A DNA stretch of 64,000 bases. It comes from Saccostrea cucullata. Lineage: Eukaryota. This document shows, piece by piece, positions 1,506 through 40,000 of the stretch. The stretch is taken from positions 124,001-188,000 of the forward strand of contig NW_026936636.1 in NCBI RefSeq assembly GCF_032062105.1, in the 5' to 3' direction. A program made the translations under genes and the position numbers. Under the pieces are notes generated by a model. That model worked only from the letters and a program-made list of their open reading frames with translations. It was not told the DNA's origin and did no database searches. The first letter of the stretch is position 1; each line of letters opens with the position of its first letter.

Positions 1506-1705
1506 GTTGAAGTAGTCAATTTGGCCGGCAGCCGGTTCCTAGGGAAAACACTGCTAACTTGCCATTATGAAGTTTATATTACAAAATCTATATCTAAAAT
1601 GGAAGAGGGTTACATAATGAAGCACATGAACAGAAAGATATACATGTAAAATTATGTATAATATAACACTCTAGTCACAACAACACACCACTACTCATTA
1701 CTCAC

Positions 1706-1860
1706 CAATTAAGATCTCCCAGTTCTTACACGCTTGTGTCACCTGGTATGCACACCTCATCTCTGAGTATGATACACCCCCAATGATGAAAATAATTAGC
1801 CGTGGTCCGCTTTTGTAGCCTGCCTGGCTTTTGTCTTTATGCCAGTGTCCATATCTAGCA
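1706..1860 (-). CDS. STXBP1: Munc18 coding exon 15 (penultimate)
   Basis: [51 protein letters not shown]; AG/GTGAGT. Confidence 0.95.
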
Positions 1861-16800: not shown

Positions 16801-18671
16801 CTCCAAACCTCACATTCAAGAGATACACTTAAAATAATTTGAGTTCCTGAATGAGTTCTATTAAAGCATAAATGATAAAACTATTTAAAAGAATTAATAT
16901 TAAAGTCCACCTCTCCTTTTCACGCAATATTGCATTTTAAAAAAATAAAGACAAAGAACACTTTTAATCTCCATTAGATTAAGAAAAAATAAACTTGAAA
17001 AACAATTTCATGTTATTCCCTAACATAATAATAAAATTTAAAAAAAAAGTCTTAACACAAATACATGATAGCCTTGTGTCCTCGTGCATCTTGCAGCATG
17101 CTGAAATGTCTATATATCATCCTCATAATCAGCTGAAGGGTTTCATAAATTATTTTAATTAATTGCCATCACTTTCCATTCTACAACCATGACTCTAATG
17201 TTACAAGTACGATCGACTTACTAAGGCGCGGTAAACAAATTGGACAACTGGCATCAATATCGTACTAAAATTGGATTAAAATCTCTAAGATTAAGAAATT
17301 CAATCTTTATAGTCTTGTTGTATTCGTGTTTATTTTGTAATTATTTTACAATTGTTTGCATTAAATACGGTCCCAAAATGTGATTCATGTCATTTTCTTA
17401 AATCCGCAACAACCATTTTTTCTGTAAAAATTAAACAAATATATGTTAGTAATCAATTGATTTAATTTTATATTGTGTGGAATTGTTGCTATTTTCTATT
17501 GGGGCATCCACTGACACGTGCGGTCGCGTAAACCTGTACTTGAACAAGCCCGACGCCATAAAAAATAAACTTGCATGTTATTCCCTCTGACATAATCTCG
17601 TGCATCTTGCAGCATGCTGATATCATCCTCATACTCAGCTGATCTACAATCATCACTTTCCATTCTCCGTTCTTTTTCACCGCTTGGACAACATCTGACA
17701 TAATCTCTGAAACATAAAGATTAACAAGTAAATACTTCGGTATTTCCTAAATATATTGTTTTCTGACAAATATTTTAATCCTGATATTGTGTGCAAAAAA
17801 CAGATGTAAAAAAATTGGCTCTGCTTTATGCAATGTCTCCTCATTTATTATCTTAAACAATATACTAATGTTAAAAAACAGATGAAATTGGAACTGATTA
17901 GATTAATGTCTATGTTACATTTTTTAATCACACCTTCTGTTAAAATTTCATGAAATGTTTAAAGTTATTCCATTATAGACGACTTTCACATTTACAAAAG
18001 TTATTCCCCTTTGCGTTCAATCCAAGGTGGAGGCAGATTAATGTCTATGTTACACTTAATTACACCTTCTGTTAAAATTTCATAAAATGTATATCAGATA
18101 TTCTGTTATTGTAAAGTAAATGTAAACAACAGTCTACTGAATATAACAGTTGCAAAATCCACAAGAATTATTCAATTTACAAACATTGATAATTTTATTT
18201 AGTAACTTATAGAATTTTTTATACTGGCATAAATCTAAGTAAATAAATTTTGCAAGTGTAAGTGGGAGGGGAAGTTGGATAGAGGAAACTCGAACTTATA
18301 GGAGATCCTTGCAATTATTTTTCACTCGCTCGATTTTATCTGGTATTTGTATTATTTATTTATCCGTCTGTTTATTGTATTTGAATTTCAAACCATCATA
18401 CTATCGCCTTTACAAATTATGCGTAATAAGAGTAAAAAATTTGGCAATATCGATCGCAGGAAGGCTTATAAATATTAAGTTGACATTTCCGAAAAACTGC
18501 ATTAGTTTGCAACACATGGGTGCACCCCTTTTCACATAAACTATTAGAAATAAAGCACTACTCTTAAATATTAAGCTTCCAACCGCACTTTATCTAAATC
18601 TTTCTTTTAAAGAACATTAAATACGGTGAAAACATCAGCCTACTTTCGTGAACTGCCTGTTTGAGCGACAT
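1706..18671 (-). CDS. STXBP1: Sec1/Munc18-family syntaxin-binding protein (Munc18-1/Rop/UNC-18 orthologue), multi-exon, 3' terminal exon not found in window
   Basis: Phase-consistent exons 18644-18671, 17575-17706, 16525-16601, 16178-16256, 15920-16023, 13270-13418, 12730-12814, 12187-12317, 11843-11947, 11458-11665, 10984-11122, 9146-9255, 5596-5706, 4977-5071, 1706-1860. Peptides include [119 protein letters not shown] and [21 protein letters not shown]. Confidence 0.97.
2102..2660. mobile_element. MITE with CAGTGATTGGGAAGG TIRs and 6-bp TSD (copy 1)
   Basis: TSD AATACA at 2096-2101 and 2661-2666; inverted homologue at 14613-15162. Confidence 0.85.
3452..3990. mobile_element. MITE with 20-bp TIR and subterminal TTTCATTTCCGACA repeats
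   Basis: GCTGCATTTCATTTCCGGAA at 3453-3472 and inverted at 3970-3989; 8-bp TSD GATTGTAT/GATTGCAT (one mismatch). Confidence 0.8.
4977..5071 (-). CDS. STXBP1: Munc18 coding exon 14
   Basis: [31 protein letters not shown]; AG/GTAAAC. Confidence 0.92.
5596..5706 (-). CDS. STXBP1: Munc18 coding exon 13
   Basis: [37 protein letters not shown]; AG/GTAGGT. Confidence 0.94.
7132..7326. mobile_element. TA-flanked Tc1/mariner-pogo-type MITE nested in a decayed Helentron-like element (about 6436-7380)
   Basis: TA-CTGTAGATTCCT...AGGAATCTACAG-TA. Confidence 0.75.
7451..7495 (-). CDS. STXBP1: Candidate alternative Munc18 cassette exon C (45 nt, [15 protein letters not shown])
   Basis: GTTTTCATGCATATAG acceptor, AAG|GTAATG donor, stop-free, phase 0-0. 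Confidence 0.35.
7993..8049 (-). CDS. STXBP1: Candidate alternative Munc18 cassette exon B (57 nt, [19 protein letters not shown])
   Basis: Strong acceptor TTTTTATCCACCTTTTTATAG, donor CCG|GTATGT, purine-rich, stop-free, phase 0-0. Confidence 0.55.
8678..8734 (-). CDS. STXBP1: Candidate alternative Munc18 cassette exon A (57 nt, [19 protein letters not shown])
   Basis: TTTGCATGCCTCAG acceptor, CAG|GTGAGA donor, stop-free, phase 0-0. Confidence 0.45.
9146..9255 (-). CDS. STXBP1: Munc18 coding exon 12
   Basis: [36 protein letters not shown]; AG/GTAAGT, ends phase 0. Confidence 0.94.
9570..10896. mobile_element. Non-autonomous Tc1/mariner-pogo(Tc2)-like element, copy 1
   Basis: TA-CCGTAATTTT...AAAATTACGG-TA; inverted copy at 13842-15908. 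Confidence 0.88.
10984..11122 (-). CDS. STXBP1: Munc18 coding exon 11
   Basis: [46 protein letters not shown]; AG/GTACGA. Confidence 0.95.
11458..11665 (-). CDS. STXBP1: Munc18 coding exon 10
   Basis: [15 protein letters not shown]...[26 protein letters not shown]...LCKVEQ; AG/GTGAGG. Confidence 0.95.
11843..11947 (-). CDS. STXBP1: Munc18 coding exon 9
   Basis: [34 protein letters not shown]; AG/GTAAGT. Confidence 0.94.
12187..12317 (-). CDS. STXBP1: Munc18 coding exon 8
   Basis: [43 protein letters not shown]; AG/GTAAGT. Confidence 0.95.
12730..12814 (-). CDS. STXBP1: Munc18 coding exon 7
   Basis: [28 protein letters not shown]; AG/GTAGGG. Confidence 0.94.
13270..13418 (-). CDS. STXBP1: Munc18 coding exon 6
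   Basis: [16 protein letters not shown]...[24 protein letters not shown]; AG/GTGGGT. Confidence 0.94.
13842..15908. mobile_element. Same Tc2-like element, copy 2 (inverted), carrying a nested MITE
   Basis: TA-CCGTAATTT...AAATTACGG-TA; reverse-complement similarity to 9570-10896 throughout. Confidence 0.88.
14613..15162. mobile_element. MITE with CAGTGATTGGGAAGG TIRs and 6-bp TSD (copy 2, nested)
   Basis: TSD ACCCAC at 14607-14612 and 15163-15168; empty site at 10264-10269 in the paralogous host element. Confidence 0.9.
15920..16023 (-). CDS. STXBP1: Munc18 coding exon 5
   Basis: [34 protein letters not shown]; AG/GTAAGC. Confidence 0.94.
16178..16256 (-). CDS. STXBP1: Munc18 coding exon 4
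   Basis: [26 protein letters not shown]; AG/GTGAGT. Confidence 0.93.
16525..16601 (-). CDS. STXBP1: Munc18 coding exon 3
   Basis: [25 protein letters not shown]; AG/GTAAGG. Confidence 0.93.
16984..17182 (-). pseudogene. Fragmented intronic duplicate of the 3' part of Munc18 exon 2
   Basis: Blocks 16984-16997, 17009-17029, 17081-17104 (24 nt exact), 17115-17136 and 17167-17182 match 17560-17666 collinearly, separated by insertions. Confidence 0.85.
17575..17706 (-). CDS. STXBP1: Munc18 coding exon 2 (ends in GC donor)
   Basis: TTTCAG acceptor; [43 protein letters not shown]; donor CAT|GCAAGT. Confidence 0.93.
18644..18671 (-). CDS. STXBP1: Munc18 coding exon 1 (MSLKQAVHE+K)
   Basis: ATG at 18671-18669, donor A|GTAGGC, phase 1 fits next exon; resembles the UNC-18 N-terminus MSLKQ. 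Confidence 0.85.
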
Positions 18672-20649: not shown

Positions 20650-20662
20650 ATGTCAAAACCAG
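20650..20662 (+). CDS. RAPGEF1: Candidate C3G alternative first coding exon 1a (MSKP+E)
   Basis: ATC-ATG context, CAG|GTAAGA donor, phase 1 matches exon 32711. Confidence 0.45.
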
Positions 20663-21760
20663 GTAAGAAAATCGATGAGGAAGCAGCTGCAGGTGTATTT
20701 TGCCTACAGGTGTGCATTTCTGTCATTGCCTTATAGTGCCATTACTTTATTTATTATATGAAGCTTAAATGTCTACACGATTACACCGATGTAATTAAAG
20801 ACAATTATGTCAATTTCTAAGATGCAAGGTGTCTGCCCCGTTGCTGCAACCATGATTTATCATCCCTCCCATCTTCTGCAGTAAAACTTATCTGGATGTC
20901 TTTGTTTTGCTTTATTGTCCTAAAATTAATTTAATATTATACATCTGACTTTTCTTGAAAGATTCTTAAAGCCTTGTAATAATTTTAAAAGCCCATTCTC
21001 CTAAAATTACCATCAACGGACAAGAATGCAATGCATCTAATGGCGAGTGCAGCAGCACTCACACTGGCCTGACTGGGAGCTGTAATGTCAATGCCTGGGC
21101 AAAGAGGAAATTAAAACTTGCACATTGCTCCAAAATGAATTTTCTTCTGCAGTAGCATCTGGACCAATAATGCATTGCTTCTTAAATCACATTCTCGTGA
21201 GTTCAATAAATAAAAAACTTGCCTTGATTTTTAATTCAATGAAATGTAGCACTTTTCAGAATTTAGTTTGGCAATTCAACTTACATATGACATCATAGAG
21301 GCACCAAATATCATGTGCGATTTGATGAACCTGATCTAAATTAAGACTGAATAAGTATCTGTGCTCATCCTAATGGTCGCACTGTCAACATATTATTGTC
21401 ACTGTCATCACTTAAATAATTCTCATTCTTTGTGTACAAACAGCAATACAGATACTCAATGAAATGGTGGTATCTAGGGGGAAAAATAAGCATTTAAGGC
21501 TAATTTAAGAATGGAATCAAGAATGAATTGATATTTTTTAATATTGATGGCAAATTCAATAGAAAAGTTGGACAGAAAACTGCAATACAATTCATAGGAC
21601 TTTGTAAAAAGTTATCCCACCAGTTGTTCTATTAATACTTCCATTTGTAATACAGACACCATATGTACAGTATATCTTATTAGTAGGTTTAATGTGTGAA
21701 TGCTAAGCAGATAATATTTGACCTACTGATAAATATTGATGCATGTTATAATTCCTAATA

Positions 21761-22646
21761 CAGTCAATTCTCGAATTATCGCCATTCGATTCATCGCCAT
21801 TTTCGCAATACCGCCATGATTTCCCAAGAACGTTTTTCCTGCTATATAAAATTCTCTTTATAATGCCAAATTCGCATACCGCCATCCGCCACCCTGTTTT
21901 CACAACAAACGTCCATTTTTAAGTGTCAATTATCTCGATATACCGCCACAGGTGCATGACACTGGTCAGTGAAGCGCGGCTAATTAGTTGACGCTATTCC
22001 TGTTGTAAAGCATGCAAACGCAGACAAGGTACATGCAATTAAGTAATTAAACAAGAATTAAATAAACAATAATTTTAACATGAACTGTTATAATAATTTT
22101 GTTTTCTGTTTAATATAATCATTTATTCATGGCTTCGCACGGTCGTTGTTAAAGTTCGCCGATAACGATATTATTTTGATGATCTCTGCTTTAAACAGTG
22201 CAAAGTTTGCTGGAAAAAATAATTATACGGTATAAATTGTGAACGTTCCATCAACAATGATACCATAAACAATGAACATATTCAAGAATTCATTTTACTT
22301 ATTATCGGCAATATATCACGACGATCGACCCAGTATGTTTTTTTTTTCAATATCGAATGTGCAGATTTACATTCATATACAAATATTTGTCTTTATTTCA
22401 TATCTACACATTTTGTTTTAGCAAAATTGTACATTAAAAAAATTACTTGAAGTATTTTCAATCAGAAATATGTTTTAATATACATGTACATGTAATAATA
22501 AGAATAGAAACGCTAAATGGTATTTCTAAGAACGATAACTCTTCTTCTTGTTTTCTAAAAGATGAGAAATTCAATTCATCGCCAAATTCGTTATACCGCC
22601 ATGATTTCTAAATTACAGAAGGCGGCGGTTTATCGAGAATTAACTG
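21761..22646. mobile_element. TA-flanked pogo/Tigger-like MITE
   Basis: TA-CAGTCAATTCTCGA...TCGAGAATTAACTG-TA. Confidence 0.85.
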
Positions 22647-23988
22647 TAGTTAGGGGTTAGACTGAAATCAGTCATTGTGGAAATGATAACTATTAGTCAT
22701 AAAATAAAATTTTGATGTCTTATTAAAAACTTAATTTTAAAGAAAATGGTGAAAAACAATCGTAACAATTTAAGATCCCCCCTTTACTGTCCCCAAAATT
22801 AAGTTCAAAAGAGAGTTACCTCTCTTTGAAATATATGGATCCATGCACCAACAGAAAAAAGGGTCAGAAAACTGTGTCAAGTTGACATGCAAAATTCACT
22901 GGCAAGAAGGAGAATGAAAGAATAATCTGTATATTTACGTATTTGCACAAAATAGTAAAGAAAAAAACAATTCTCATTTAGTAATTTTACCCAAATGAGG
23001 AGTCCAAATGTTTTAAAAGATCTTGCATGTTTTACCAAGCACATTCTTTTTCAGGGTTAATAATAGTTTCAATATTTACTCTACACTTGAATCTATTGCA
23101 ATGAAAGGTGAAGAAAATGAGTTGTCTTGCTTCCATTGTTGACAAAATGTATGGTAGTCCTCTTTTCATGAATTATCAGTATTTGAATAACATGTCTACT
23201 CAATATTCTCTGTTCCTGCATTTACCTGTCAAATCTGCAGGCTATTAGAAAAAAAAGTCAAGAATATTTTCCCTCTCTTTAGTATTATATTTAAAAATCT
23301 CTCATTAATTCTCAAATACTAGGCATAATTTTCTGTGACTGTATTTGAAATTAATTTGATGAATTTATTTTCATAAGGAAATAAAATGTGAGTTTCCCCC
23401 CGAAACTCACTAAAGGAAGCTTTTATTACATGTAATTTGTGAAGTGAGGGATTTCCCCTTATGCTACTTTAATATGTACTTTCTGCACATGTACTACTCA
23501 GAATATTTCATTCTTTTTTATGGCTTATTTAAGTTTTATTTGCGCAGTGCTCTTTTGTTTTTTTTTTAAAATATTATTTTATATTTATTCAGTGAAGAAG
23601 AGGAATTTTTTTACCCTGATTCTTCTTGTTATTCCTTTATTCCTAAACACACTTACCTTTGAAATTCAGAGCAAAACTGAAAGGCTTTTATGAATTACTA
23701 CTGTACTAATGCATTTCTAAGTTATATTTCTTTCAGTTATTGTTGTTGATTGTCTGCACTGTCTGATCCACCAATGACAACCACAGGTCTTATATAATCC
23801 ACTTCACTTTGTTCATCCATCTCCCAGTCTGTGACACTAAGGAGGAGATTTACTTTGTTTAATCTGTATCTCCAACAGTTTTAGTTCCATATTTTTAAAC
23901 ATGTCAAATATTTTACACTGTCCTAGGATTTAAGATTTATTACCTTGATTGTAACAATTGAAACTGTAAATGGGATTGAAAAATGTAT

Positions 23989-24054
23989 GGCTGGGAATCA
24001 AACCTGGGACTCCTGCATCAGTAGTCAGTTGCTTTACCAACTGAACTATCCAGG
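23989..24054 (-). mobile_element. tRNA-derived SINE-like head (degenerate)
   Basis: Minus strand CCTGGATAGTTCAGTTGGTAAAGCA...CCAGGTTTGATTCCCAGCC with A-box and degenerate B-box. Confidence 0.55.
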
Positions 24055-25065
24055 AATTGAAAGTTTTATGCACAGACATGCACACAGAAATGAGAATGTA
24101 TGAAATTATTACCTTGACCTTTAACGGTTTGACCGTTGGGCAGTAGGGAGTTGTGGTATAAAATTTCACTGCAAAAGCTCAAAGCTTCTTGAGATACTGC
24201 ATGGAAAAGAGTTAAAACAAACAGAATTTTTTAAATTTATAACCTCAACTTTTCACTTTTTGTCCTCAAAGTCAATGGGTTCTATCTTAGGCTATAGGAA
24301 GTTTTTGTGCAAAATTTCATCGCAAAAGCTTAAAAGCTTCTCAAGATATTGCTTGGAAATGAAAGTGTTATAGACTGTAAGACAGGACAGAAATACAGTA
24401 TGGACACACCAAAGTTAATATCCTCCACTTTCAGTGAAAGCAGGGGACAAAAAGGGGTAGAAAGGGGAGTTGGACATGTTTCCAGATAATACTGACCTTA
24501 ATATCTCTTATAAAACGAAACCATTTTTGCACCCTTTTAAAAAAGTGTTGGTGACATAGCTCAAGACATTTTGATGAGTAGGTACATTGTTTCCCCTGTC
24601 AGATGTTTATTGTAGTACCAGTTGTGGTGAAAAAAAAATAAAACTTCAAGTAAAACCAACATGAGGGTGGACTTTTGAATAATGAATAATACAAAGAAAG
24701 AGAGGGGTTAAAACTAACATGCATCCAATGCATGTTTTTTTTTTTTTAAATTATTGAAAAATACAAACAGACAAACAAATAAAAATCTAGCTGGTCAGAC
24801 TGTGTCATTATGAGTAAGTGTATCCTTTGCCCCCTACTCTATAATGACTTTATAAGGTCTCCATATATTGTTCGTTCTTCTCCTCTAGTGTTCTGGATCT
24901 TACTCATCCACTTATATTTACATGTAGATTTTTTTAAATACTGACGAGATAAATGTAAATTTAGTATATCCTCACTGAATGGCTGGCCTAAGTGTCATAT
25001 GACATAGTTATATTGTGGAATGTACATGTATACAATCTCTATTTTGATTTCTAAATGGAGCAGTC

Positions 25066-25099
25066 ATGTCCAAAATGAGACCGAATTTAATGTCGAAAG
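25066..25099 (+). CDS. RAPGEF1: Candidate C3G alternative first coding exon 1b (MSKMRPNLMSK+E)
   Basis: GTC-ATG context, AAG|GTAAGT consensus donor, phase 1. Confidence 0.55.
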
Positions 25100-28000
25100 G
25101 TAAGTTTTATAATCTTGATGCAGTTACTTATTACGTATACTTATATATACATTAATTTGTTCCTTTACCTGAAATCATTCCTTCTTTTTGGTGAAAAGTT
25201 CATGTACAAAGATAAACAATGCTCAATAACTCATATTAAAGTTTATAAAAAATAACAGGACATTAAATAAATGTTTATATTATGTCAATTGGTAGAACTA
25301 TAATAAAAAAAAAATACTATTTAAAACTACGAAAGGAAGTTATAATGGTGATTGGTCCATTTATGGACTGTTTGAGAAGAGTGATCAGAATTCTATTCTG
25401 CGTTATAAAATTTAGAACATGTAAGTAGTTTTATTGTAGCAGAGTTCTACTTGTTTTATAATCATTCAGTAATAATTGGTAGCTGTTTATAAGTGCTTAA
25501 CATATATATTTCCATAGGCATTATGCTTAACTTAAGATACTGTAAATCAGAATTTAATCGTGAGAACTTTATTTTCGCGTAATTATGTGAGTCTGTCAGC
25601 TTACAAATATTATTCTCATATGTATTTATAATATCAGAGGGTTATAAAACACAAATACCATATTTTGCAAAAAATTTGGTTTCTCTTAAGGAATGAATTT
25701 AATAGCTACCCAAGACATACTGTATATTAACCTGGATGGGGGCAGTTTACGCTTTATAAACCCTGAAGCAGTTTATGAAAAAGTATAAACTGCTCCAACC
25801 CAGATTATATCAGTATACCTTGGGTAGCTATTAAATTCATTCCTTATAACTTAATATTTAATCACTAATTGTAGAAATTAAGATTATTTCCCCTTCAAAA
25901 ATGTCTTTAAATTGCACATAAATGTAAAGTCAAGTGGATTGATACGTTTTTGACGTCAGTCATTGTGACGTAGACAACCCAGGTTATTCGTTATAAAATA
26001 ATTTTTTATTCAATCAAATGATGCATTACAAACAAAAATTATTGATAAATATCATGTAGTTATATCTTTTAAATAAAGGTGTCGTGAAAGTATAGTAGAT
26101 TTAAGGCATTCAAGACTATACTTGTACATGAAATAAACTTTTTCTGGTCTTATTGAAGACAGATGATTACTGTAAACCAAGTATTATACGCGTGCGATAA
26201 ATATCCGCGAGTTCCAAAAGTAACACACTGCTCGGTGTTTGATATTTAATCTTTATTAAACAGTTGTTCATTTTCTTCACATGACTGTTATGATTAGAGT
26301 TATTTGCCCTTTTTTGAATACCGATACCGATACAATGATTATCTTGTAAAAACTTTAATGTACTAGAAGCACATAAATTCGAATTACAAACATTCGGTAA
26401 AAATTGTAAGAAACGAATGGCAAAACTTAATATATTTGTCTAAAAATGATTAAAATGTCAGTAATTATATCAGCTTGTGTTATTATTGTTCATTTATTGT
26501 CACAGACGAGTTAGAGATAAGCTGTTTAATTACGACTAATTATGGCCCAGTCTGCTCTGTCCAAACAATTTATAATAATTGTTCTTTGGCTTTGTAGCTC
26601 TCGGAAAGCGTCGATTAATTACTCAATTGGTATGAGGCACTTTCACACTTTCACAATTGGAGCTTTTTTTTTAAAATCAACTCTGTTCTCCTCAATTTTT
26701 TTTCCGATTTTCATTCTATCGTCGTGAATGATAACATTTTACTTTAACTATAGGAACGGATATAAGATTTTAAATGGACGCAATGCACAGAATGTCTTAA
26801 ATAATGCGTAAGCAGTACTCAAGGTAGCATTTTACTTAGTTTATGGACAGATTTAAGATTTTAATTTGATGCCTAAAATACGTGTGGAAATTTAAAAAAA
26901 ATGTGACCACTTGTTCGCGGAAATAAATCGTCGCGGATTGGTTCTCTAGCGGTCAGTCGCGAATAAAAAATGACGCGTATAATAATTGGTTTACAGTATA
27001 TTGACAAACTTACCAGAATTATAAAAAAATCTCTGTTCTGTAAACTGATGGATATAAATCAATGGGGAATTCCCAAAGATAATAGATAGTCTTTTCTTAT
27101 CACCCACTCTCTGTTAATAATAAAAGGATGATATTTGATACAAATGTCTTATTTATTTTGATGAGGACAGAAAAAAAGTTTGAACAATGACAGTCGTTTT
27201 ATAAATTGATTAGTGCCCACTCATTTTGAAAGTAAGTCAAAGGATCAAAGATCAGCTTAGTACAGTATTTAGTGTCTTATCAGTTATTTTCTGTTACATA
27301 AAGTTCAGAAGGATGGCCTATACATCTTTTTCGATCCATGAGTCAATTTTGAATGTTCATACATTTTGACCTGTTAATCTATTTTTACGATTCAAAAGTC
27401 TTAGTTGCATGCTATTGGAACAGAGTTTGAATGACTTAGATTTAAGTGATAATTTTGTTTCCTGCAATGTCTGAAGCCAAGAATCTATATTTATTTCTTA
27501 TCCCTTTCTGTATTATTTATTTACATCTGAAAGCTTGAGGAGATATAAACTGTATGAGTGAATTAAGATACAGTTAAATTTCAGTATCTCAAACACAGAT
27601 ATCTTGAATACCATGGATATGTCGTAGTCATTTTTTGGTCCCAACTTCTTATTTCTTGAGTATTTTACCCTGGAATCTCGAATCCTTTGTTATCTCAAAG
27701 TTTTTTCTCGATCCCTTTGAGTTGAAGATAATGAGGTTTGACTGTATGTGAGATTTAATACCTGCATGGCCAAGGTCAGGGCATCATGTTGGGTCAAGTT
27801 CATTAACAGAGGTCAAAGTTCAAATACACAAAGAATTTGCTTGCATTGTAATGGACTCTAAAGTACCACTTGCACGACAGTACATGATACATTGACATGA
27901 CTTGGGGGCAGTCCTTTATAACCAGTCCCCCAGTAGTGGATGCCATTTATCATGTGGTCTCAGACAAACTCGACCAAGGGCCACCATTACTGCAATAGGG

Positions 28001-31000
28001 TACTCCCTGAGGGACCACTTATCCTGCTTCCTATTGGAATCACTCTGCATAAACAAACAACTAATTAGCTTCAATTGTCATTTCCAAACATTTGGATGGG
28101 ACAGAGACAGACATTCTTTAGCATAGGGCAATTGTTGCTGGCATTGATTTGCAGTCTGTTGCATTCCTAACACTATTCCTGAGGGGAGGAAAAAGTTGAA
28201 CTTTCTTGGTGTTTTTTTGAATTGTGTTTCCTGTATAATTGATCATTCATGTATTCTGTTTTCTATATGTGGAATCTAATCAATACCACATATTATCATT
28301 CATAACTGCAGGGGGAGTCTGGAAAAGTTGATGTGGATTTTTAAAGTTTGGTCATGTTTTAATATCTATTCACCATGGAGGTATGATAAAGTAAGAAGTT
28401 CATTAGCTGGTCTGTGGGGTTCTTAATACTTACTCTTGATGAAAACTGCTCCCTAAACTATTCCCATTGGCAGTTTTGCAGTGATTGCAAAGCGGTGACA
28501 ACATGTGACACTGTTACATAGATTGGATTTTTTGTTTCTGATTGTTAACCATGGAGACAGAGCCATCAGATGGTGAGTTATTAAAAAGTTCTCTTGTGTG
28601 GATATAAGCTGACCCAAAGTGATTGGTCAGTTTGTAAAGTTTTTGCAAAATAACCAGTCCCTTGTTTCAGTTGGAATTCATTGAAGAAGAATAAGATAAT
28701 TTAATTACAGCAAAGACCTTACTGTGCTGGGGGGGGGGGGGGGGTGTTAATGATAATTGCTACAATTGTTTTAAAAAATTTGGATTATTTGACCATAATG
28801 GTGCATTTTAAATTTAAAAAGTTCACATTTGTAAGCCAACATATTTGCAACATCCAATTTCTTTTTATTATTTTTTGATTCTTTTGGAATGAAATTGCTT
28901 TTCCTGAGCAAATAAAGGAAAGGATTAGAAGAATGAATTACATGTATAATATTTTTACAAAAAGAAAGTTTTTTTAGGTAAGGATTGAATTTCTTTGCTA
29001 AATTCTGGAAGATAAACTGTTTGGGGATCTATGTGACATTATGTTGTAATTAGTGGTTTCATTTATTTTGTTTTTATTTCTTTTCTTTTGTTTTCACCTG
29101 CAGAAAACAGGTGTGATCATGCTGCACATAGTTTAGTAGAGATGGTCTTTCTATATTGCTTCACATTACACTAGCACCAGTTGGACAATGTAGATTAAAT
29201 ATTAAATATTCCATTTCTTGCTGATGCAACTATATTTTTTTCAAAATGAAGTAGACACAAGATCTCTATTAGAAAATCTAAAGAAAGTAAGCAATTATGG
29301 GAGAAAAAAAGTTGAATAATCAGAAAATTGTTGGCTTGAGGAATTTGTCAATCAAGTGCTGTATGAGGTGAAGGGCCTCCTAATATTGATTCAGTGGTCC
29401 AGCATGACTCATTTGCTTTATTGACGATAGTCTCTAGTTCCAGAGTCAGAATCTTTATAGAACTATACAGAATGATCGCAATTATGACTAATGCTGTACT
29501 TCTAGGTACCTTCAGATCTTCATCAGATGGGCTTTATGTTTATAATTTTATTGTCAATTTATGGGTATTGTAAGGTATAGAAAAGTACTTGTCAAACATT
29601 TTGTAGTGGAGGTCTTTGCCAATTAATGATTGTGCTGTGCAAAAGAGCTGGTCAAAAATTGTTGGTAGTATTGGAAGAGTAATTGTGTCTACTTTATGTG
29701 CAATATCAACAAATTTGAGCAGTGTACAGTAAAATTTTGATATATGTGAATCATTGAGATATACAGTACACAGAAAGGTTTGACAGCACTAATGATTATA
29801 CTTTGTGGTCTGTATCACAAAGTCATAGAAATTTATTTGCCTTCTCTATGAGGCAAGGTCCACCATACCATATAGCATAACTTTTAAATCTAATGAAACA
29901 ACACCGAAACAAAATTGAAACATTGCATATGCTTCTTTAGAGGTCTTCCTGCTGGTTCGATGTAATATAAACATTTCTTCCATGTGTTTTTATTTGTAGG
30001 TGGATGGGTCACTTCTGTCAAAACGTGGACAGTATCAGTTGCCAAGCGATAGTGTACATAATTTATCTAAAAAATGCAGAACATTGCCAAGGCCGTAAAC
30101 TAAACTCATCTTCCTTTTTTCATCTGTAAATGTTCTTGATTTGTCAGTAAAACTAATTAAAAGCTGTGTCAGTTAATTATTGGATGGTTACAGCTGAACT
30201 TTTTGATAGTGAAGCAACCAAAATCTGTGCTTAAAGGGTGCACATTTCTTTTCATTTTGTTTGTTGATACATCTTCCTGTATAGAAAGATCAAAGGGTTG
30301 CACAGGTGCATTAAATGTGATGCAACTAATTCTCCTTATCCCAAAATGCAAACGAGTTCAAGAAAAGAGGCAAGATTGCAATGCAATATTACTGATTCTT
30401 GAACTGGCACGTGCACCAAGTCAGGGTACAAGTCTGATTCAATTGAAAAGTAAAATGTTGTCTGGAAAATCATCTTTGAACATCATTTCTGTGGATATAG
30501 ATGATATGTTGGGTCGTATATCTTAATACGGTGAATTAATATGTGATGGTCAGACATCTTGAAGTTATAGCAATCAATAGTCTGTCTGATGATGCTGTAA
30601 TCTGTAGAATGCAGTAAAGGCATCTGAGCCTGGAATATTGTCCCTCATATATCACACAGGTAATTAGGTCTGCTGCAGCCAGTATAAAAAGGATCAAAAT
30701 ACATGTATCAGGAGTAATAAAGGTTGTAAACAAACTTTTCTGATTTAAAAAAAAAGGTACTCAGTAGATGTTAGTTTGGTTATACTGGATAGATGCAGCT
30801 ATGTGAAAAAAAATGTACATATTTATGCATATTGTAGATTCCCCGCCCCCCCCTCCAAATCCAAGGAAATAAAGGCAGCTTTAGATTTAGATGTGTTCCA
30901 ATTCAGTACTAATAGATCTCCTTATTATAATATACATATTTTATTCTAGTGAGTTTCAGAGGTGTTTTGTTGCACTTCTTCTTGTAGACAGATGGTAGAC

Positions 31001-34000
31001 GTGTTATCCCATATAATAGCTCAGACAAGAGATTTTGGTGCAAGATTATTGTTTGCAGATGGCATTTATGTTCCATTGTACAATTTTTCTTTATTACTTA
31101 AGGTGTAATGAGTGTTTGGTGCTTATTTTGTATATTATAAGAATTCTTGGATCAATTTCATGAAGTGTTACATTTCTGATGCACCATTTCTATAACGGTT
31201 TAAAGCAATTCTGTCCAACTCTTCTGTAATTCTAAGAAATCTTCAATAAAAAAAATCTCATTCAAGTTTTTTTTAAGTTTCCGACAAACCCAGAAAAAAG
31301 AAAATCATTCTGCAAATACATGTTGTTTCTAATTATAGCGTGTTGAGATATTTTTCTGTGGGGATGGTTTTCAGTTATCTACAGTTGCTTTTAACATCTT
31401 TAGGATAAAGCCAGCACCTTCAGGGGCTTGCTCAGAAGAATTTCCTCTGATAAACACCAATACCTAAATGCAAAAAAAAAAAAAAAAAAAATGGGAGCCT
31501 AATTGTGTTTCTAGAGGAGGGCTCTCCTTCTTGTTTTAGAAAATTAAAAAATAGTTTTCATAATAGTAAATATGGAAATTTAAATAGAAACAAATAAGGA
31601 TGTTTTCTTGAAGCACTTGTATTATTTAATCAGGAAGTGCAAATGCATATTGTAACAATGTTATATGTAGGAGCTTTGATATTGGTTTCATGAATTCGAA
31701 AAAGAGGAAGTATAAACATAAATAAAAAATACCTAGAATTGGGCCTAAAATAATAAAATGGAAAACACATGTAAATTATATGCACTTTTTGACTTGTCTT
31801 TACCAGGGGCTTAAGTAAATGGCTGCACCGAGAGTCTTAAATATATTTTCTCTAATTGCCTTTTTATAGCTAATTGGCATACCTAAGTCGTGTCATCATA
31901 TATATGCGAATTATTTAATCAGCGAAGTTTGTTTATTATTTTTTTTTCACACCACAAGATTGAAGCATTACTAAACTTAGCATTAGTAAAAAAGTGTGAT
32001 GAATGAAGATGGGTTTACACCCAACAGAATTTGCTTGCCCCTGGGGTTAGGAGAATTAGAAGTCAGTGTGGGTTTTGAGATGGGCCCCACATGTAACGAA
32101 GATAAAGATGAAAGAAGGTTGTGATGGAAGTTTAGATTGTATTTGCAGTGGATGAAAACATGCAAACCTTGTATGATGGTATCGTATTAAGCCGTATCAG
32201 CTTTAATTTTCTCCTGCACTCTTTTTCATCATTTGATCAGCATCTTTTTAAGTTTAAAATTAAACAAGAGAAAAAAGTAAAGTTTTATATCTATTTATTA
32301 GTACATGTAGTAGTAAACTGGTTTTGTATCTCAAGATGAATAAGATAATGAGGGATGTCTCAAGGGTCTGTTTGTTAATGAATTTTTTTATACCTTCTCT
32401 GAAAAAAAGGAGTACAATTGGTTGCTTTAACATTATACATGTACATATGCTTCCTGCTCTGCCAGTTGGTATACAGCAATGGATTTTCAGATTTTATTAA
32501 GCAGAGTTTATCGCCCAGTAGTACACCAGTATGTTGAATGTATTTCATACCTTCCCGGCAATCAGCAACTGTATTGTATCCATAATTCATGATTGATCTG
32601 GCCAAGGTACCCAGTGAATGACAGTTTTGGTGCATATACAGCCAACAGTTGGAGATTATAGACATATTAAGACAGGACGTGTAATTATTGTGCTTATTTT
32701 TTTTTCGTAGAAAAGAGCCCCGGGGCTAAGATGCTGAAGAAGGCGAGGTCCTTCCGGGATGATGTGAAGGGATACCTACGTCGACGATCTTCAGCATCGC
32801 AGCATGAGGCGGCCATCACGGAGGCCAAGTACCGACACAGCAAGTCGTACTCCATGCCAGTGGACACCCCAACGGAAAACCCAGCTCTCACTGACAAAGT
32901 AGGTATCCTGTGGTAATAAAGGGGGGGGGTGTCAGTTGGTCTGTGATTAGGTGTCACTGTTTATGGAAGTAGAGATTGTGCATGTAATAGTTAATGTTAT
33001 CCGATTATAGGAAAAAATGGGTTGTTTTACTTTGCATAATTTTTTGACTGAAATACGAAGAATAATGCTATACTGGAGAGGTGTAACACACTGGATAAAA
33101 CTGCAACAGATGAAAAGTACTTGGTTAAGTGTAGTAACTTGAACATTTTTGGATACTTGACTTAGGGGGATCGATGGACAGATTGATAGATCAGATAAAA
33201 AATGAAAAGGAATAACTTCATAGGTATAAATTAAAGTACATGTATATTCACCAAAAAAGTTGGAAAACATTGAGCTTGTTAGTTCAAAAGGGCAAATAAT
33301 AAATTATGACTGACATTTGATTCTGCATTTATGATACGAAGGTATGTTTTTTGCCATGAAATCAGGCAAGTACTTGCTACGATGCAGTATATTTTGCACA
33401 GAGACATCAAATATTAAAAAGTTAAAACTCTTAAATCTGCTGTGTATGCAAATTAAGGCTTTATCACAGTAGAGATTAAGGGATAAAGCTAGTCTCTAAT
33501 ACAGTTTTTCCTACATCCAAGGGCCCATTGTGTCAGCAAATGTACATTTATTTAAGGAGAGATTCTTCAGCTGTCATATTATGAAAAAATCTATAAATCC
33601 ACACTGCAAAACCTTTTCATGAAAAATTCATGCATTTGTATCTTTTGGCACACAGATAAGCAATTGCACTTCATAATATTCAGAATATGTGATTTTGCGA
33701 TTTGTGCATCAAGAGAAAAAATACTAAGCTCCTTGGAATCACAGGTATCAATTTACAATTGTGGTTCATCTTAATCATGGTGGAAGAATGAGGAAAACTT
33801 GACAGTGATGATAGCTGCTCCCTAACAGTTTGATTGCAGTAATTGCACATTCAGGAGATCACTGTTATCAGTTTCACACAATAATGTTGTGTCATCGTCT
33901 GCATGTCACTTGATTGCCATGTTTTTTTTGTTTTTTTTTTGGTGGCAGTCTTGTCTTTGTCCTTTTTTGTAGGAGATTAATAGCTTAGTGCAAAATAGAC

Positions 34001-37000
34001 CTAGCATGTTTTACAACTCATTTCTTTTGAAATACCACACCCAGACCCACATAAAAGTTTGTGATTGTGTTTTAACTGAGAGAGTAGAGGGTATAGTAGA
34101 AATGTAGGGAAGAAGGTAACATAGTCAATTACATTAGACTGGTTATCTTTTTTTTCAGTAGTTCAATTTGATTTATTGATATTTGATTTTTATTTAAAAT
34201 ATGCATGTGGTTTATGTTTGAGTAATTGTATTTCAGAATAAAGAAAAGGACAGTCTCAAAACTAAAAACAAAGTGAGTAATGCACTGTGATAAATTCTGG
34301 ATCATTTATATCTATCTGGCTTAAATGGATTCTTAGCTCACCGGAATTGAGAAACGAGCTTTTCTGATCAAATTTTTGTCTGTAAGTTCAGTTTTGTTTG
34401 TTTGAACTGATTTCTGTTAACCCAGTGTTCTGTACTTTTTCTCCAAAATGCATGTGTTGGTCTCAAAACTTGGTATAAATGTATTTCTAATGATCTTGAA
34501 GAGTAACTTCTCAGTTCTGGAACCATCAAACTTTGATGCCATCAATCTGGTGACTAGTACCACTAATTACATAGTAACAAAGACTTCATAAGTCTTTTTC
34601 ACTTCTTATCACATTTGGTAACTATATTTTGTTAGTAATGGAGGAGAGGTTTGCCATTTTATATGATATAAATTCAAAGATGGACTGATTGTGAGATACA
34701 TCCTTTCCTTTTTCATTAAATCTCAAATCAATGCAAATTTTTATGTAAATTAATCCTAGGTAAAATTTTTAATTAATTTTTATATCAGTTAATAACATGA
34801 TCTCTAGTGAGGTGAGCTTTGTGGTCCATGGATGCTTTGCTTCGATTTTTCTTTTTCTGCTTAGCTAATTCAGCTCAAATTTGTCCAATGCCGTATTTCC
34901 TAATGCTGCATTCCCCGAAAAGATTTATTCCGTCTATAAATTTGTATGAACAAAACTTGTTGCAGTGCTTTGTATTGTATATTTCCTGTTGTCCTTGACC
35001 TGTTGAAACAATGGTAAAGTTAGATCTAGTCACCATAGTTCAGGCTCTGACTGTCTGGCCAAGTGATGTAATAATCATATAGCACTTCAACATTGTACTT
35101 TTTAAGATGACTTCAGTGTCATGTGTGTTAATTAGCACGATTTTATGACCTGAAGGAAATATTTCATTTTTTACAATTCCTTTATTCAGTGCATGATAAG
35201 TCAGCAAAATCAGTGTTTTAACTTACGTTTGCCTGTTTGTCTGTCTGAGTTACAATTCTACCCCTTTGTCTTCTCTATACAGCTTTGAATTCCCTCATTA
35301 TTACTATTTTGAATGTAGTCTTTCAGAAATTTGATAAAGTTATTTCTATTTAGCAGATTTCCATTACATATTGGATAAATTTCATTTTTGGTCATTAAAA
35401 GATTGTTTGTTTAGAATTGCATCCTGTGGGTAGGGATGGGAGGGGGATGGGTCAATTCCAAGAGTGATGGTGGATAACTAAATTGCAAAAATAAAACTCC
35501 ATCAAAAACACATTATGTAATATGGAATAGATTGCAATAGAGTTCGAGGTCAAAGCAAGCATTGTTTGGAACCTGAGTTACATTTACAACTGGAAACTGA
35601 TACCTGTACTCAGCATTTACTAGGTTCTTTGTGTTTATAGTGTTGTCAGTATTAAGCTAGAATATGGATCATTCTTTTTATCTGAAGTTAAATAATTATT
35701 TGATGTCTCAATTTAAAAAATATATTTTCCACGAAACCTGTCCATTGTTTTTGTGTAATAGACCCATATTTTGACTTGGGAAAGTTATCTGTCTTTATAA
35801 AGCTTACTTTTGAACTGATAAACAATGATAGTTCTCACCATTTCCTGTGATACTAAGTCACTGGCTTTTCCTATAAGTAGAAAAATATCACAGGCTTTTC
35901 CTGTGACCCTGCGTCAGACAGCTGTCTCTAACAGCTATAAAATAAAAAAATCATGTAAAATGTAAACAAGTAGTCAGAGATATACAACCTATTTGTCATA
36001 GTGACATTATAAAGTAATATATTAAATATAATTCAGGGAAATGGCAGTCTAAGTGAATGCCCATCAATAGTGGAATGTTTATTATTTCAAGAAAAAAAAT
36101 TATGCATGACTTCCCTCTTCCCGTCACAAGTATTGGGTCCACTTGACACGCAAAGTGTGCAAAATTTTATCATTCTTCAGCCAAGGTTAAAGGATACATT
36201 TTATGTGTTGGCAAAAAACAATGATGAATATTGGATTTCCATTTATAGGCAGATTTAATGTGCTGCACTTGTAAATGGAACAGTTGGCCTTATTAACATT
36301 GTAAATTCTCTATTGATCTTGGTGAAACGGCACAGTGTGTGGATTGTTTTTATTTTGAGGGGGGAGGAAGGTCGATTCACCTGGTTACTTCCCCCTAAGG
36401 TGCCAAAGTTAGGAATAGAGGAAGCTGCAGCAGACAGATTTTTTTTCTTCTCTGGATTCCCCCAGTGGAGGATTCCTCACTGCTAAGTGAGCCATGTTCT
36501 CTTGTCTGTGATCATCTATATATACGTATTGGATCCAGAAAGACGTTAGGGGGCTAAACACAGCATCCCACTCACCCAGATGCTAAGGCAGTTTGATTGA
36601 CTGAATAATATTGAGTGAATCACACATGTCGGATGGCTGTGGGATAAGGGATTTCTGTTTGATCTTCTACACTCCATTTCTTTTGACCTGTGAAAAACAG
36701 TAAAGGACTTGTGAACCTGGAAGATTTTAGGATTCAGATTTGAGAGAGAGAAAAAAATCTTACCTCATCTTTATTGTCAGTGGTTGAATAATTCCCAAGA
36801 GAATTAGGTGTTTGGGGGAAATATTGGTTTTTGTGTACTTGAGTGAAAAAGAGAGAAGCACTTGTATTCCTGTTGATGGATATGGGATTTTAACCTTAAT
36901 ATATAATGTTAGTAAACAGTGGTTAAACAGGCATTACAAGTTTTATGATGGGAAAAAGCAGTACTTTGGGCAAAAAGAAGAAGTTGAAAGCTGAAGCTCC

Positions 37001-40000
37001 TATCCAGGTAAAGTCTACGAGATTTAATGATCGATCCACCATTCATCTGATTCTTCTAAGAGTTTTACTTATAGTTACCTTACTATGAATAATTTAATTG
37101 ATTGAGGAAGTGCAGGCTATTTATTTTTAATGTGGCAGAGGTGTCTAAATTTAGAATCAGCATGACAAAGTGAATTATATGTTAGACAAAACAACGTCAA
37201 CCTTTTGTAACAGGATTCTTTGTGACAGTAATATTCAGGAAATATATTTATTTAAATTTGGCTGTTTAGGAAATGCAGTAATGATAACTTGTTTGCAGTT
37301 CCTTTTCCTCAATAGTTTTACTTCTTTGATCAAAGGGTAGATTTCCTTTTTTCCTGTGTGGGTAATTGGGGCTCAACAGCTGTCCAATTCCGAGTCCCTC
37401 TCAATCTCGAGCAACACACAAACCCCGATTACCATTACGTTACCTCAGTATCTGAACCTTTAAATTACATTTATTAAAACGGCAACCTGGCTTTTTGATC
37501 AGTTGTTTTCTTAATACAACAGGATGCATGATTCATTGAAGATGTATTTCTTATAAGCCTGTAGTCATCATCATCCGCTTGTCTGGTGTGGTGCAACATT
37601 CAGGCTGAAGGGATCACCACAATTTACACTGAAAAGGAGTGAAAGCAGTCCTATGTAAACAAGTGGTAGTTTTACTTTGATGATGGAAAAATAATGAAAA
37701 AAATGTTTTCTTTTCTTTCTAGAAACTAAATTTCGTTTCAGTGTCATTGGTGTTCTTGGTACAAAATGTAGTCATATATTGAAGTTTCAGTAGAAAACTG
37801 TGACCGGTTTAATCCACTCTTAAAAATTTGAATATAATTGTGCAAGTATATGATTAAGATTTGATTAATTTCTAAATCTTTTTCTTTTAGATTAGCTTTA
37901 GTTGTTACATTTCATATCACCAATTGGTCAGAAATTAGAAAAGTAGATTATAAAGAAGATAAACACACATTACATAAGAAGTGGTAAGAAAAATTCAGAT
38001 TCTTCTGTTGGTTAATATTAAAAGCTAATGGAGTGAGTTGATGAAGAAGTTAGGGACTTGGTGATGGCTGATTAGATAGGTTTCCTGCTGAGACTAAGTG
38101 GCTGTTTATTTATCCATCACAATCTTTGTATAATGGCTACATCTTAGAAATCCAATCTTGTGCAAGATTTCAAGGAAAATGTGGAGAAACAAAGAGAGGG
38201 TTAAGGAGAGGCTTTGTTATACATTTTCTCTGGTCTTTTGGTTTTGTTAGTTTTTGTTATGAGGGGAAAAAAAAGAACTTGGGCTGTTCAGGACAAATAT
38301 TGTCTTACTCTAGCTGGACCACAAAAAAATGGTAAATTGATTAACCATTTGTGTACATATCAGTGAGGCTGATTTGCACATTGATGAAAATTCTCCCTGG
38401 CAGAAAGATTTTTCTGCTGAAGCGAGTAAAATGTTTTACAATGTCTGAATGATAGAGAAGGATTGTAGATTTATCTGAAATCAATAAGAAACAAAAGTTT
38501 ATGTAGGGGGTAGGAGGACGGAATCAATCAGGACATTCCCCCAAGGCATAAAAAGAAACCCCAGATTAGTTACAGGGCAACAAGTAATTCATAACAATAT
38601 TCTTTGGCAGAAAAGAAGAGGTTGGTGCATTAGTCAAATGAGCCCTCTGTGACTATAGCTGTCCCTTGATCTCGAAAGGCCATACCATTATTGTTACAGA
38701 TATAGTCAATAAAATAGCATTATTTGTTTTAAAGGCAATGCTTGGGCAATCCACTTTATTGAGCAAAAAAAAAGAACAACAGTATTGATGGGTTCCATAT
38801 TTCTACTTTTTTGCATTTTTTTTCTTTAATACTTTCTCTGAACTTGTGCCTGACTCTGGTATGGTTTCATGTTGGAATCATAACAAACGATATTAAATTT
38901 TAACAAACCTTTTCCATCTGTGTGATTGTGGTGTAGGGTGGTTAAAAGTAATAACTAAGCCAAACAGTTTGGTCAGATTCAGATGCTTTCATTGTAACAG
39001 TTTAGTTGACTGCTGTCTTTGTTAAAGGTGCTTTCTTTTTGCACCTGGAGTAATGTTTATTACGCACATGTGTCGTCTCGCATCAGTGATCAAAGAAAGA
39101 AATTTATCAAAGGTCGCAGATCTGATTTTTGTTCAGTCATTTAATTTTTCATCAAATATGGAAGAAGCAAAATAACTTTAAAGTGGTCTGAATATTACAA
39201 CGCATTATAGATAATGCAAAGTGCAGAATTTTAAATCAATTAGTTTTATGAACATAGGTTTATTGATTCAGTTATGCTAGAGTATCTTTTAAATGGCCTT
39301 GAATAATTTAAGGTTTAAGTTGTAACTTAATTTATGCTTATACGTCTTAATAATTACATGTTGTGAATTTGTGGGTGTTGAGAAAAACTGCATCTGTTAC
39401 AACACAGCATTGAGTAACGCAAAACCAAGTCTCAGGGAAAGTGTAATAACTTCAGAGCCAGATGATGAGGCAAATTTAGCAATGACTGTCTTCTTCAGAA
39501 GACAGATCCTTTGTCAGGCGTAGGGGGGATGAGGGAATTAGTCATTCTTAGAAGGACTGTGATCTAATTATCTGATTGCTTCACTAACTGACTCACAGTT
39601 CAATTAAATCAGCACTAATTAAGACCAGAAGCATGTCAGAATTTGTCTATTGTTCTGTAACACGTAGGATTTTCAGGGGGGATTGTCTCTTGGCGTTAAG
39701 GCACTGCATGTTGATTGTTTACTCTTAGCGTAATTGAAACATGTTCTTGATGATTACTTTGAATTTTTTCTTAGCTTTGGGGGATGTGCTTATTATTGAT
39801 GCTTTGTGGTGAAAATTTAATGAAAGAAAATTCTGATAAATCACGGTCATCCATTTTTCGAGACATGTAAACATGGTAAATATAAAGTGTTCACAACCTA
39901 TGTAATATAGCAGGTCAAGTGTGTGCTGTAGCACTTGTGAACTTTGGAGTTAAATTTCATTACAAAACTATTTAGGGCTGTGGTTATATTATAAGTTCTA

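What the first reader, a model, noticed from the sequence alone, without database searches (positions are those of the whole stretch)
36945..37009. Internal first exon giving a myristoylation-plus-polybasic C3G isoform
Seen: deep in the 11-kb intron, ATG-ATG-GGA... encodes MGKSSTLGKKKKLKAEAPIQ and ends at CAG|GTAAAG in phase 0, the phase exon 43811 requires. The second ATG has -3A/+4G context. Established: MGxxx[S/T] is the N-myristoyltransferase consensus, and myristate plus a lysine cluster is the Src-type two-signal plasma-membrane anchor. C3G is normally recruited to membranes through Crk adaptors. Inference: an alternative promoter yields a constitutively membrane-anchored Rap1 GEF lacking exon 2.
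Basis: partly seen in the sequence, partly recalled or inferred. Interest (0 to 1): 0.75.

Follow-up and report, generated by a model that had tools for sequence, protein, structure and literature searches.

The report
Lysine-tipped short C3G isoform of molluscs
RNA reads show that oysters splice an extra exon from inside the gene for the cell-adhesion switch C3G; it likely starts a shorter protein whose lysine-rich tip, shared with mussels and scallops, likely steers it to membranes by charge rather than by the fatty anchor first proposed.

Summary
The exon is real. RNA reads join 37007 to 43811 (GT..AG) in 3 of 4 runs laid, 32-42% of the two listed junctions into that exon. It is already a RefSeq isoform model in six oyster species, 18 of 20 residues invariant. 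The host intron is 9.5 kb, not 11: a 36-nt exon was missed. The myristoylation reading is weak. Mussels and scallops keep the core K-x-x-T-L-[G/D]-[K/R]-K-K-K at the same junction without Gly2, so the 'position-6' Thr is conserved where it cannot serve NMT. The oyster start is Lys3/Thr6/Leu7; in a human data set all 5 responding Met-Gly-Lys rows have Ser6 plus Lys7/His7, and the Thr6 rows (eEF1A) did not respond. The isoform keeps the Crk sites and the autoinhibitory helix, so 'constitutive' is unsupported. Best reading: a charge-based, probably phosphorylation-switchable membrane tag (0.38); rivals are a nuclear import signal (0.27) and oyster-specific myristoylation (0.25). No paper on it was found in four searches. 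The scan noted no C3G case before, only an analogous SHP2 one.

The parts
36132..36944 (+). Probable 5' leader of the alternative first exon (start approximate), with 12 upstream ATGs whose ORFs all end before the main start
   Evidence: near-zero raw-read depth at 34605-35898, depth from the 35899-36545 bin on, 6 molecules end at 36132 in X16, contig pieces X2 36150-36702 and X1 35874-36319 and 36340-36702. uATGs.
36924..36926 (+). In-frame TAA upstream of the start codons
36945..36947 (+). First ATG, weak context (-3T/+4A); absent from the Ostrea and C. virginica models
36948..37007 (+). Coding part from the second ATG (-3A/+4G): Gly2, Lys3, Thr6, Leu7, lysine patch at 9-14; 18 of 20 residues invariant in six oysters; predicted disordered
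   Evidence: the only listed read variant in it (37001 T>C) is synonymous
37008..43810 (+). GT..AG intron removed in the short isoform (6803 nt)
   Evidence: joint table
43811..43983 (+). First shared exon; its first codon (Asp22) is where helix 1 of the folded N-terminal domain begins
   Evidence: helix 22-45, pLDDT about 90
34237..34272 (+).
   Evidence: junctions 32898>34237 and 34272>43811 in all 4 runs; tblastn of P0001
32711..32898 (+). Exon 2 of the long isoforms (basic KKARSF-type motif), skipped by the short isoform
25066..25099 (+). Alternative first exon (coding part) of a long isoform
   Evidence: junction to 32711 in X16 and X17; P0005; coordinates
28551..28572 (+). Alternative first exon (coding part) of a long isoform
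   Evidence: junction in X1 and X2; P0006
32160..32178 (+). Alternative first exon (coding part) of a long isoform
   Evidence: junction in X1 and X2; P0014
20650..20662 (+). Most distal first exon (coding part, 4 codons + 1 nt) matching the start of P0001
   Evidence: outside the stretch on which reads were laid

Best explanation
This is an expressed alternative exon of the oyster RAPGEF1/C3G gene, likely a first exon under its own promoter, that would swap the long disordered N-terminal tail for a short lysine-rich tail likely acting as a charge-based membrane-targeting tag that likely needs no myristate. Shown: splicing onto exon 43811, strong conservation in oysters, and the same K-x-x-T-L-[G/D]-[K/R]-K-K-K core in mussels and scallops without Gly2. 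Predicted: the tail is disordered and abuts helix 1 of the N-terminal domain; the Crk-type motifs, the AIR-like helix and REM-CDC25 are intact. Inferred: the +5 to +7 patch binds acidic inner-leaflet lipids and adds avidity to Crk- and Rap1-dependent recruitment. The conserved Thr, with Lys at -3, a hydrophobic residue at +1 and basic residues at +3 to +5, would be a basophilic-kinase site whose phosphorylation weakens that binding (kinase preference recalled). The GEF would still need Crk and tyrosine phosphorylation to fire.
For: Junction reads. RefSeq models in 6 of 6 oyster species listed. Identity 0.96 against 0.56 for the first exon at 25066-25099 and 0.89 for exon 2. The core motif is in Mytilus (5 species), Mizuhopecten and Pecten, and a shorter TL[DE]KK in Octopus (3 species), all without Gly2. 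Mussels and scallops carry an extra KKGK cluster upstream (net +6/+7). A quick tree puts oysters plus Pinctada as sister to scallops (support 84) with mussels outside, so the non-Gly2 start brackets oysters. Human Met-Gly-Lys substrates carry Ser6 and Lys7/His7. AF2 model. Membrane recruitment is a separate first step of C3G activation (PMC9896810, passages). A RasGRP-family element recruits by electrostatics to phosphoinositides (PMC7037602, cut passage).
Against: No localisation, lipid-binding or phosphorylation data exist here. Five to seven charges without lipid bind membranes weakly, and unlipidated lysine runs often act as import signals instead (recalled). The scallop tail matches a bipartite NLS pattern. 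Gly2 is invariant in oysters, and Met-Gly occurs in this tail in 6 of 15 other mollusc genera, which hints at a Gly2-dependent role. The TL-x-basic core is absent from clams, unionids, gastropods and chiton, so homology of all these tails is uncertain. No transcription start was mapped, and 12 joints were hidden.
Confidence: 0.38

Rival explanations
1. The lysine patch is a nuclear import signal, so the internal promoter makes a nucleus-enriched C3G isoform, with the adjacent Thr tuning import.
For: K-[K/R]-x-[K/R] matches in oyster, mussel, scallop and octopus tails; both scallop tails match KK-x12-KKKKK (patterns recalled). Human C3G shuttles through importin-alpha and has a putative N-terminal NLS (PMC5385946, passages).
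Against: The pattern is absent from the Potamilus, Ruditapes, Mya, Patella, Haliotis, chiton and five other gastropod tails (12 of 18 proteins). The NLSs mutated in human C3G lie in the central region. Exon 2 of the long isoforms is also basic, so the swap need not add an NLS.
Confidence: 0.27
2. One reading: initiation at the second ATG exposes Gly2, NMT adds myristate, and myristate plus lysines anchor C3G at the plasma membrane. The start would have been gained in the oyster lineage by truncating an older internal G-K-x-x-T-L motif.
For: Gly2, Lys3, Thr6 and the patch are invariant in 6 of 6 oysters while the upstream Met is not. The second ATG has the better context. About a dozen human NMT substrates have Lys3 (PMC7048800). 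Basic residues follow at 9-14.
Against: In PMC4200515 supplement 3, sheet 2, 5 of 11 Met-Gly-Lys rows respond to NMT inhibitor and all 5 have Ser6 with Lys7 or His7; the two Thr6 rows (EEF1A1/2) do not respond. These also carry Glu4, so they are an imperfect match. A basic residue 7 is favoured in NMT structures; oyster has Leu7. It fails a recalled PROSITE-type pattern. Gly and Thr are shared gaplessly with mussels, where they are internal. Met-Met-Gly products in Saccostrea and Magallana would not be substrates.
Confidence: 0.25
3. The point of the isoform is its promoter and the loss of the long tail with its conserved basic motif; the short tail is only a linker or a stability signal (for example an unmodified Gly N-degron).
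For: The gene has at least five other 5' exons. Many molluscs have very short or unrelated tails at this junction. The leader has 12 uATGs. Free N-terminal Gly can be a degron (PMC7458402, passages).
Against: 18 of 20 residues are invariant across four oyster genera, more than exon 2, and the core is shared with mussels and scallops.
Confidence: 0.1

Closest known systems
RefSeq oyster RAPGEF1 isoform models (XP_062584220.1 S. cucullata X11; XP_061189458.1; XP_011440596.3; XP_052720090.1; XP_048777783.2; XP_022322496.1)
   Same: The very same isoform; P0011 equals the window translation.
   Different: They are automatic models; no paper describing the tail was found in my searches.
Human C3G/RAPGEF1 isoform a (PMC9896810, Background section and passages read)
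   Same: NTD, Pro-rich Crk sites, AIR and REM-Cdc25 layout.
   Different: It is recruited through Crk at P1/P2; 'myrist' occurs 0 times in that paper. The mouse isoform study concerns cassette exons ('first exon' 0 hits). I recall a human isoform with a Met-Gly first exon; not checked.
Engineered membrane-targeted Drosophila C3G (PMC2831063, passages)
   Same: Shows that forced membrane targeting acts as an activated allele.
   Different: Artificial and overexpressed; the anchor type was not in the passages seen.
Alternative-first-exon lipid switches: NADH-cytochrome b5 reductase (PMC2289487, search listing and abstract start only); c-Abl 1a/1b and long RasGRP2 (recalled)
   Same: An alternative promoter or exon exchanges the N-terminal targeting peptide on an unchanged catalytic body.
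   Different: There myristoylation is demonstrated; here the motif is a poor NMT fit and is not conserved beyond oysters.
Src-family SH4 myristate-plus-basic anchor; MARCKS/K-Ras4B electrostatic switch (recalled)
   Same: Basic cluster with a neighbouring Ser/Thr in a disordered terminus.
   Different: No lipid shown; Lys3/Thr6/Leu7 instead of Ser6/Lys7.

Membership tests
RAPGEF1/C3G orthologue | C-terminal REM + RasGEF (CDC25) domains | tested here: met
   Pfam PF00618 and PF00617 above cut-off; 54% identity to a mammalian RAPGEF1 over 420 aa
RAPGEF1/C3G orthologue | Helical N-terminal domain | tested here: met
   Aligns to mammalian NTD, E 6e-13; four helices 22-149 in the AF2 model
RAPGEF1/C3G orthologue | Pro-rich Crk SH3 motifs and AIR with Tyr-Met | tested here: met
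   4 P-x-[L/I]-P-x-[K/R] motifs; Y567 at least 90% conserved in 56 sequences; helix 561-574. The pairwise AIR alignment alone is weak, E 2.0.
RAPGEF1/C3G orthologue | GEF activity on Rap1 | not testable with these tools
   needs an assay
Alternative first exon | Spliced to a downstream shared exon in RNA | tested here: met
   3 of 4 runs
Alternative first exon | Own transcription start, no upstream exon spliced in | tested here: inconclusive
   No joint into it among 15 shown (12 hidden); coverage starts about 35900-36150; library looks unstranded; three weak acceptor-like sites in the leader
N-myristoylated two-signal (Src SH4-type) anchor | Gly exposed after initiator-Met removal | tested here: inconclusive
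   True only from the second ATG; better context; sole Met in the Ostrea and C. virginica models; start usage not measured
N-myristoylated two-signal (Src SH4-type) anchor | Ser/Thr at position 6 | tested here: met
   Thr6 in 6 of 6 oysters, but the same Thr is kept internally in mussels and scallops
N-myristoylated two-signal (Src SH4-type) anchor | With Lys3, Ser6 plus a basic residue 7 as in known substrates | tested here: not met
   Oyster Thr6/Leu7; 5 of 5 responding Met-Gly-Lys rows have Ser6 + Lys7/His7. Small human set; the general rule (Utsumi) is recalled, paper not held.
N-myristoylated two-signal (Src SH4-type) anchor | Basic cluster within about 15 residues | tested here: met
   6 lysines, net +5
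N-myristoylated two-signal (Src SH4-type) anchor | Gly2 conserved in orthologous tails | tested here: not met
   Kept in oysters; absent in Mytilus, Mizuhopecten, Pecten and Octopus, which share the core
N-myristoylated two-signal (Src SH4-type) anchor | Myristate incorporation and G2A-sensitive localisation | not testable with these tools
   bench test
Classical NLS | Monopartite or bipartite basic pattern in an exposed segment | tested here: met
   Recalled patterns match oyster, mussel, scallop and octopus (6 of 18 proteins); segment disordered
Classical NLS | Importin-alpha binding and nuclear import | not testable with these tools
   bench test

The most novel reading that the evidence does not exclude
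Molluscs have kept an internal-promoter C3G isoform with a basic tail since before the classes split, and oysters turned it into a naturally myristoylated, phospho-switchable Rap1 GEF by moving the start codon onto an ancestral internal G-K-x-x-T-L motif: a natural counterpart of the engineered membrane-targeted, activated fly C3G, and an NMT substrate with an unusual Lys3/Thr6/Leu7 start.
Probability: 0.22. Interest if true: 0.55.

Novelty: new variant of a known kind. Interest (0 to 1): 0.33.

Why it matters
C3G recruitment is described as Crk-dependent, and forced membrane targeting activates it in flies. A natural isoform that makes up about a third of the spliced reads in the runs that show it, and carries its own targeting tail, would give molluscan cells a partly adaptor-independent route to Rap1 (or to the nucleus). 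The oyster, mussel and scallop tails form a natural with/without-Gly2 series that makes the lipid-versus-charge question easy to test. The weight is limited: the isoform is already in RefSeq, swapping N-terminal tags by first exon is a known device, and the function is untested.

Tried and rejected
No whole genome is held for this window, so orthologous DNA and exon borders in other species were not seen; their junctions are inferred from where the proteins diverge. Artefact or chance ORF: rejected. Internal cassette exon in frame with upstream exons: rejected by the in-frame TAA 36924 and read coverage upstream of it; a non-coding upstream exon is not excluded. An alignment search for more such tails gave 73 hits, 72 already seen and 1 new fragment (P0445) that I did not inspect. 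Among 53 long non-redundant representatives inspected out of 150, 2 start with Met-Gly and none resembles the tail; representatives hide isoforms, so this is weak. Spider and shrimp clusters (25 members listed) and Lingula (8 members) showed no such basic tail. No short basic tail was among the listed members for Dreissena or Bradybaena, and the single models of Pinctada and Solemya are long forms. Searches that found no paper on this isoform. Searches for the position-3/6/7 rule: searches gave nothing direct; two papers were not held; the PMC4550359 supplements held no Met-Gly-Lys entries. The careful tree did not finish; the quick tree was used. bioRxiv supplements are closed and could bear on mouse first-exon use.
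Full report
Observation. The second ATG has the better context, and an in-frame TAA lies at 36924. Of 52 Met-Gly ORFs in the window, 8 have S/T at position 6 and only this one has a lysine cluster.

The gene. Exon 43811 is 100% identical to Saccostrea cucullata RAPGEF1/C3G; P0011 has REM and RasGEF domains. No genome was held, so all comparison is at protein and read level.

Expression. Four runs were laid on 24900-44300. The GT..AG junction 37007>43811 stands in X16 (15 reads, 14 starts), X17 (5 reads) and X2 (depth 10.6), against 21, 9 and 22.8 for the competing junction 34272>43811: 42%, 36% and 32% of the two. It is not listed for X1 (competing junction depth 503), although X1 covers the exon at depth about 164-180 against 15 for the contig that runs on into the intron. 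X16 and X17 are one study. Most reads are 90-99% alike with near-fixed differences, so they come from another population or a close species. Raw-read depth is near zero at 34605-35898 and rises from the next bin; 6 molecules end at 36132; no joint into the exon is among the 15 shown (12 hidden). That fits a first exon with a leader of about 800 nt, holding 12 uATGs, but no start site is proven. The reads also reveal a 36-nt exon at 34237-34272, so the host intron is 9.5 kb, and four other 5' exons onto 32711; a fifth matches at 20650.

Already annotated. The isoform is a RefSeq model in all six oyster species listed. In Ostrea edulis, Crassostrea virginica and one M. gigas UniRef model it starts directly at Met-Gly-Lys. 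18 of 20 residues are invariant (mean identity 0.96), against 4 of 11 (0.56) for the first exon at 25066-25099 and 42 of 52 (0.89) for exon 2. The peptide is under strong constraint.

Beyond oysters. A short alternative N-terminus at the same point occurs in 15 other mollusc genera (exon borders inferred from proteins). Mytilus (5 species), Mizuhopecten and Pecten share K-x-x-T-L-[G/D]-[K/R]-K-K-K with oysters, and Octopus has TL[DE]KK; none has Gly2. In Mytilus the Gly and Thr align without gaps to oyster Gly2 and Thr6 but lie internally behind a MHT..KK start. Potamilus, Ruditapes, Patella and the chiton start with Met-Gly, and Mya and Haliotis have it internally, but 0 of these 6 have S/T at position 6. 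The remaining five gastropod genera have very short or unrelated tails. A quick tree (careful search unfinished) places oysters with Pinctada as sister to scallops (84, not starred), with mussels outside, which suggests, weakly, that the oyster start is derived. So the Thr that makes the MGxxxT match is conserved for a reason other than NMT.

NMT fit. The oyster start is Gly2-Lys3-Ser-Ser-Thr6-Leu7. Lys3 substrates exist (about a dozen in humans) and a basic residue 7 is favoured (PMC7048800, passages). In the inhibitor dose series of PMC4200515 (passages and supplements 2 and 3 searched), sheet 2 has 11 rows with Met-Gly-Lys: 5 respond (ARF6, GLIPR2, HPCAL1/HPCA, NCS1, TMEM106B; mean ratio 0.02-0.07 in the last column, which I read as the top dose), all Ser6 with Lys7 or His7; 6 do not (0.67-1.17), including EEF1A1/2 with Thr6. 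eEF1A also has Glu4, and the set is small and human, so this lowers but does not exclude myristoylation. The mutagenesis rule that Lys3 needs Ser6-Lys7 is recalled (paper not held).

What the swap changes. In an AF2 model from 56 sequences, residues 1-18 are disordered and helix 1 of the N-terminal domain starts at Asp22, the exon junction. Four Crk-type motifs, the AIR-like helix with Tyr567 and REM-CDC25 remain. In human C3G, membrane recruitment, phosphorylation and Crk binding at P3/P4 are separate steps (PMC9896810, passages and Background), so anchoring alone would not be expected to make it constitutively active, though an overexpressed membrane-targeted fly C3G behaves as activated (PMC2831063, passages). 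The isoform also loses the basic motif of exon 2, which is recognisable from molluscs to arthropods.

Mechanism. I commit to a charge-based membrane tag with a Thr phospho-switch (0.38; all functional steps inferred). A nuclear import signal is nearly as likely (0.27): the patch fits recalled NLS patterns, bipartite in scallops, and human C3G shuttles (PMC5385946, passages). Oyster-specific myristoylation gets 0.25, and a promoter-only or degron role 0.10. That the isoform exists and is selected is about 0.95.

Novelty. Four searches found no paper on this isoform or on a myristoylated C3G (Creative Commons library only). The scan's notes hold no C3G case; one analogous SHP2 note reached a similar verdict and was not tested here. 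Swapping N-terminal targeting peptides by first exon is a known device (PMC2289487, listing and abstract start only), so this is a new variant of a known kind. Interest 0.33.

Noticed in passing
window 34237-34272 (+): 36-nt lysine-rich exon of the long C3G isoforms, used in all four runs; skipped in some RefSeq models of other oysters (P0023, P0036, P0051).
   Followed up: partly
window 20650-32606 (+): At least five upstream first exons feed exon 32711. The one with donor 32606 (104-nt intron; X16, X17, X2) has an ATG out of frame, so it would start at the ATG at 32731 (as in model P0008).
   Followed up: partly
window 20650-20662 (+): The distal 4-codon first exon is identical in the S. cucullata, M. 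gigas, O. edulis and C. virginica models, and similar Met-Ser-Gly-Lys-type starts appear from molluscs to vertebrates.
   Followed up: no
window 32731-32790 (+): Exon 2 carries a basic KKARSF-type motif conserved in molluscs, brachiopods and arthropods (RRARSF); it looks like a second kinase-regulated basic element that the short isoform drops.
   Followed up: no
window 1701-17746 (-): A Sec1/Munc18-family gene lies on the minus strand, head to head with C3G (three exon pieces hit PF00995); its first exon was not located.
   Followed up: partly
window 36132-36944 (+): Leader with 12 upstream ATGs, three of them in frame and ending 22-55 nt before the main start; may limit translation of the short isoform.
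   Followed up: no
window 53474-54561 and 60381-61298: Two arrays of a 166-bp satellite in opposite orientation.
   Followed up: no
window 25540-27700: Interspersed repeats that draw very high off-target read depth and loose ends; not expression of this locus.
   Followed up: no
P0050, P0076, P0209, P0392, P0403, P0404: Further tiny alternative N-termini (4-10 aa) at the same junction in C. virginica, Mytilus, Mya and caenogastropods; one candidate ATG-donor at window 34797-34811 had no listed junction.
   Followed up: partly
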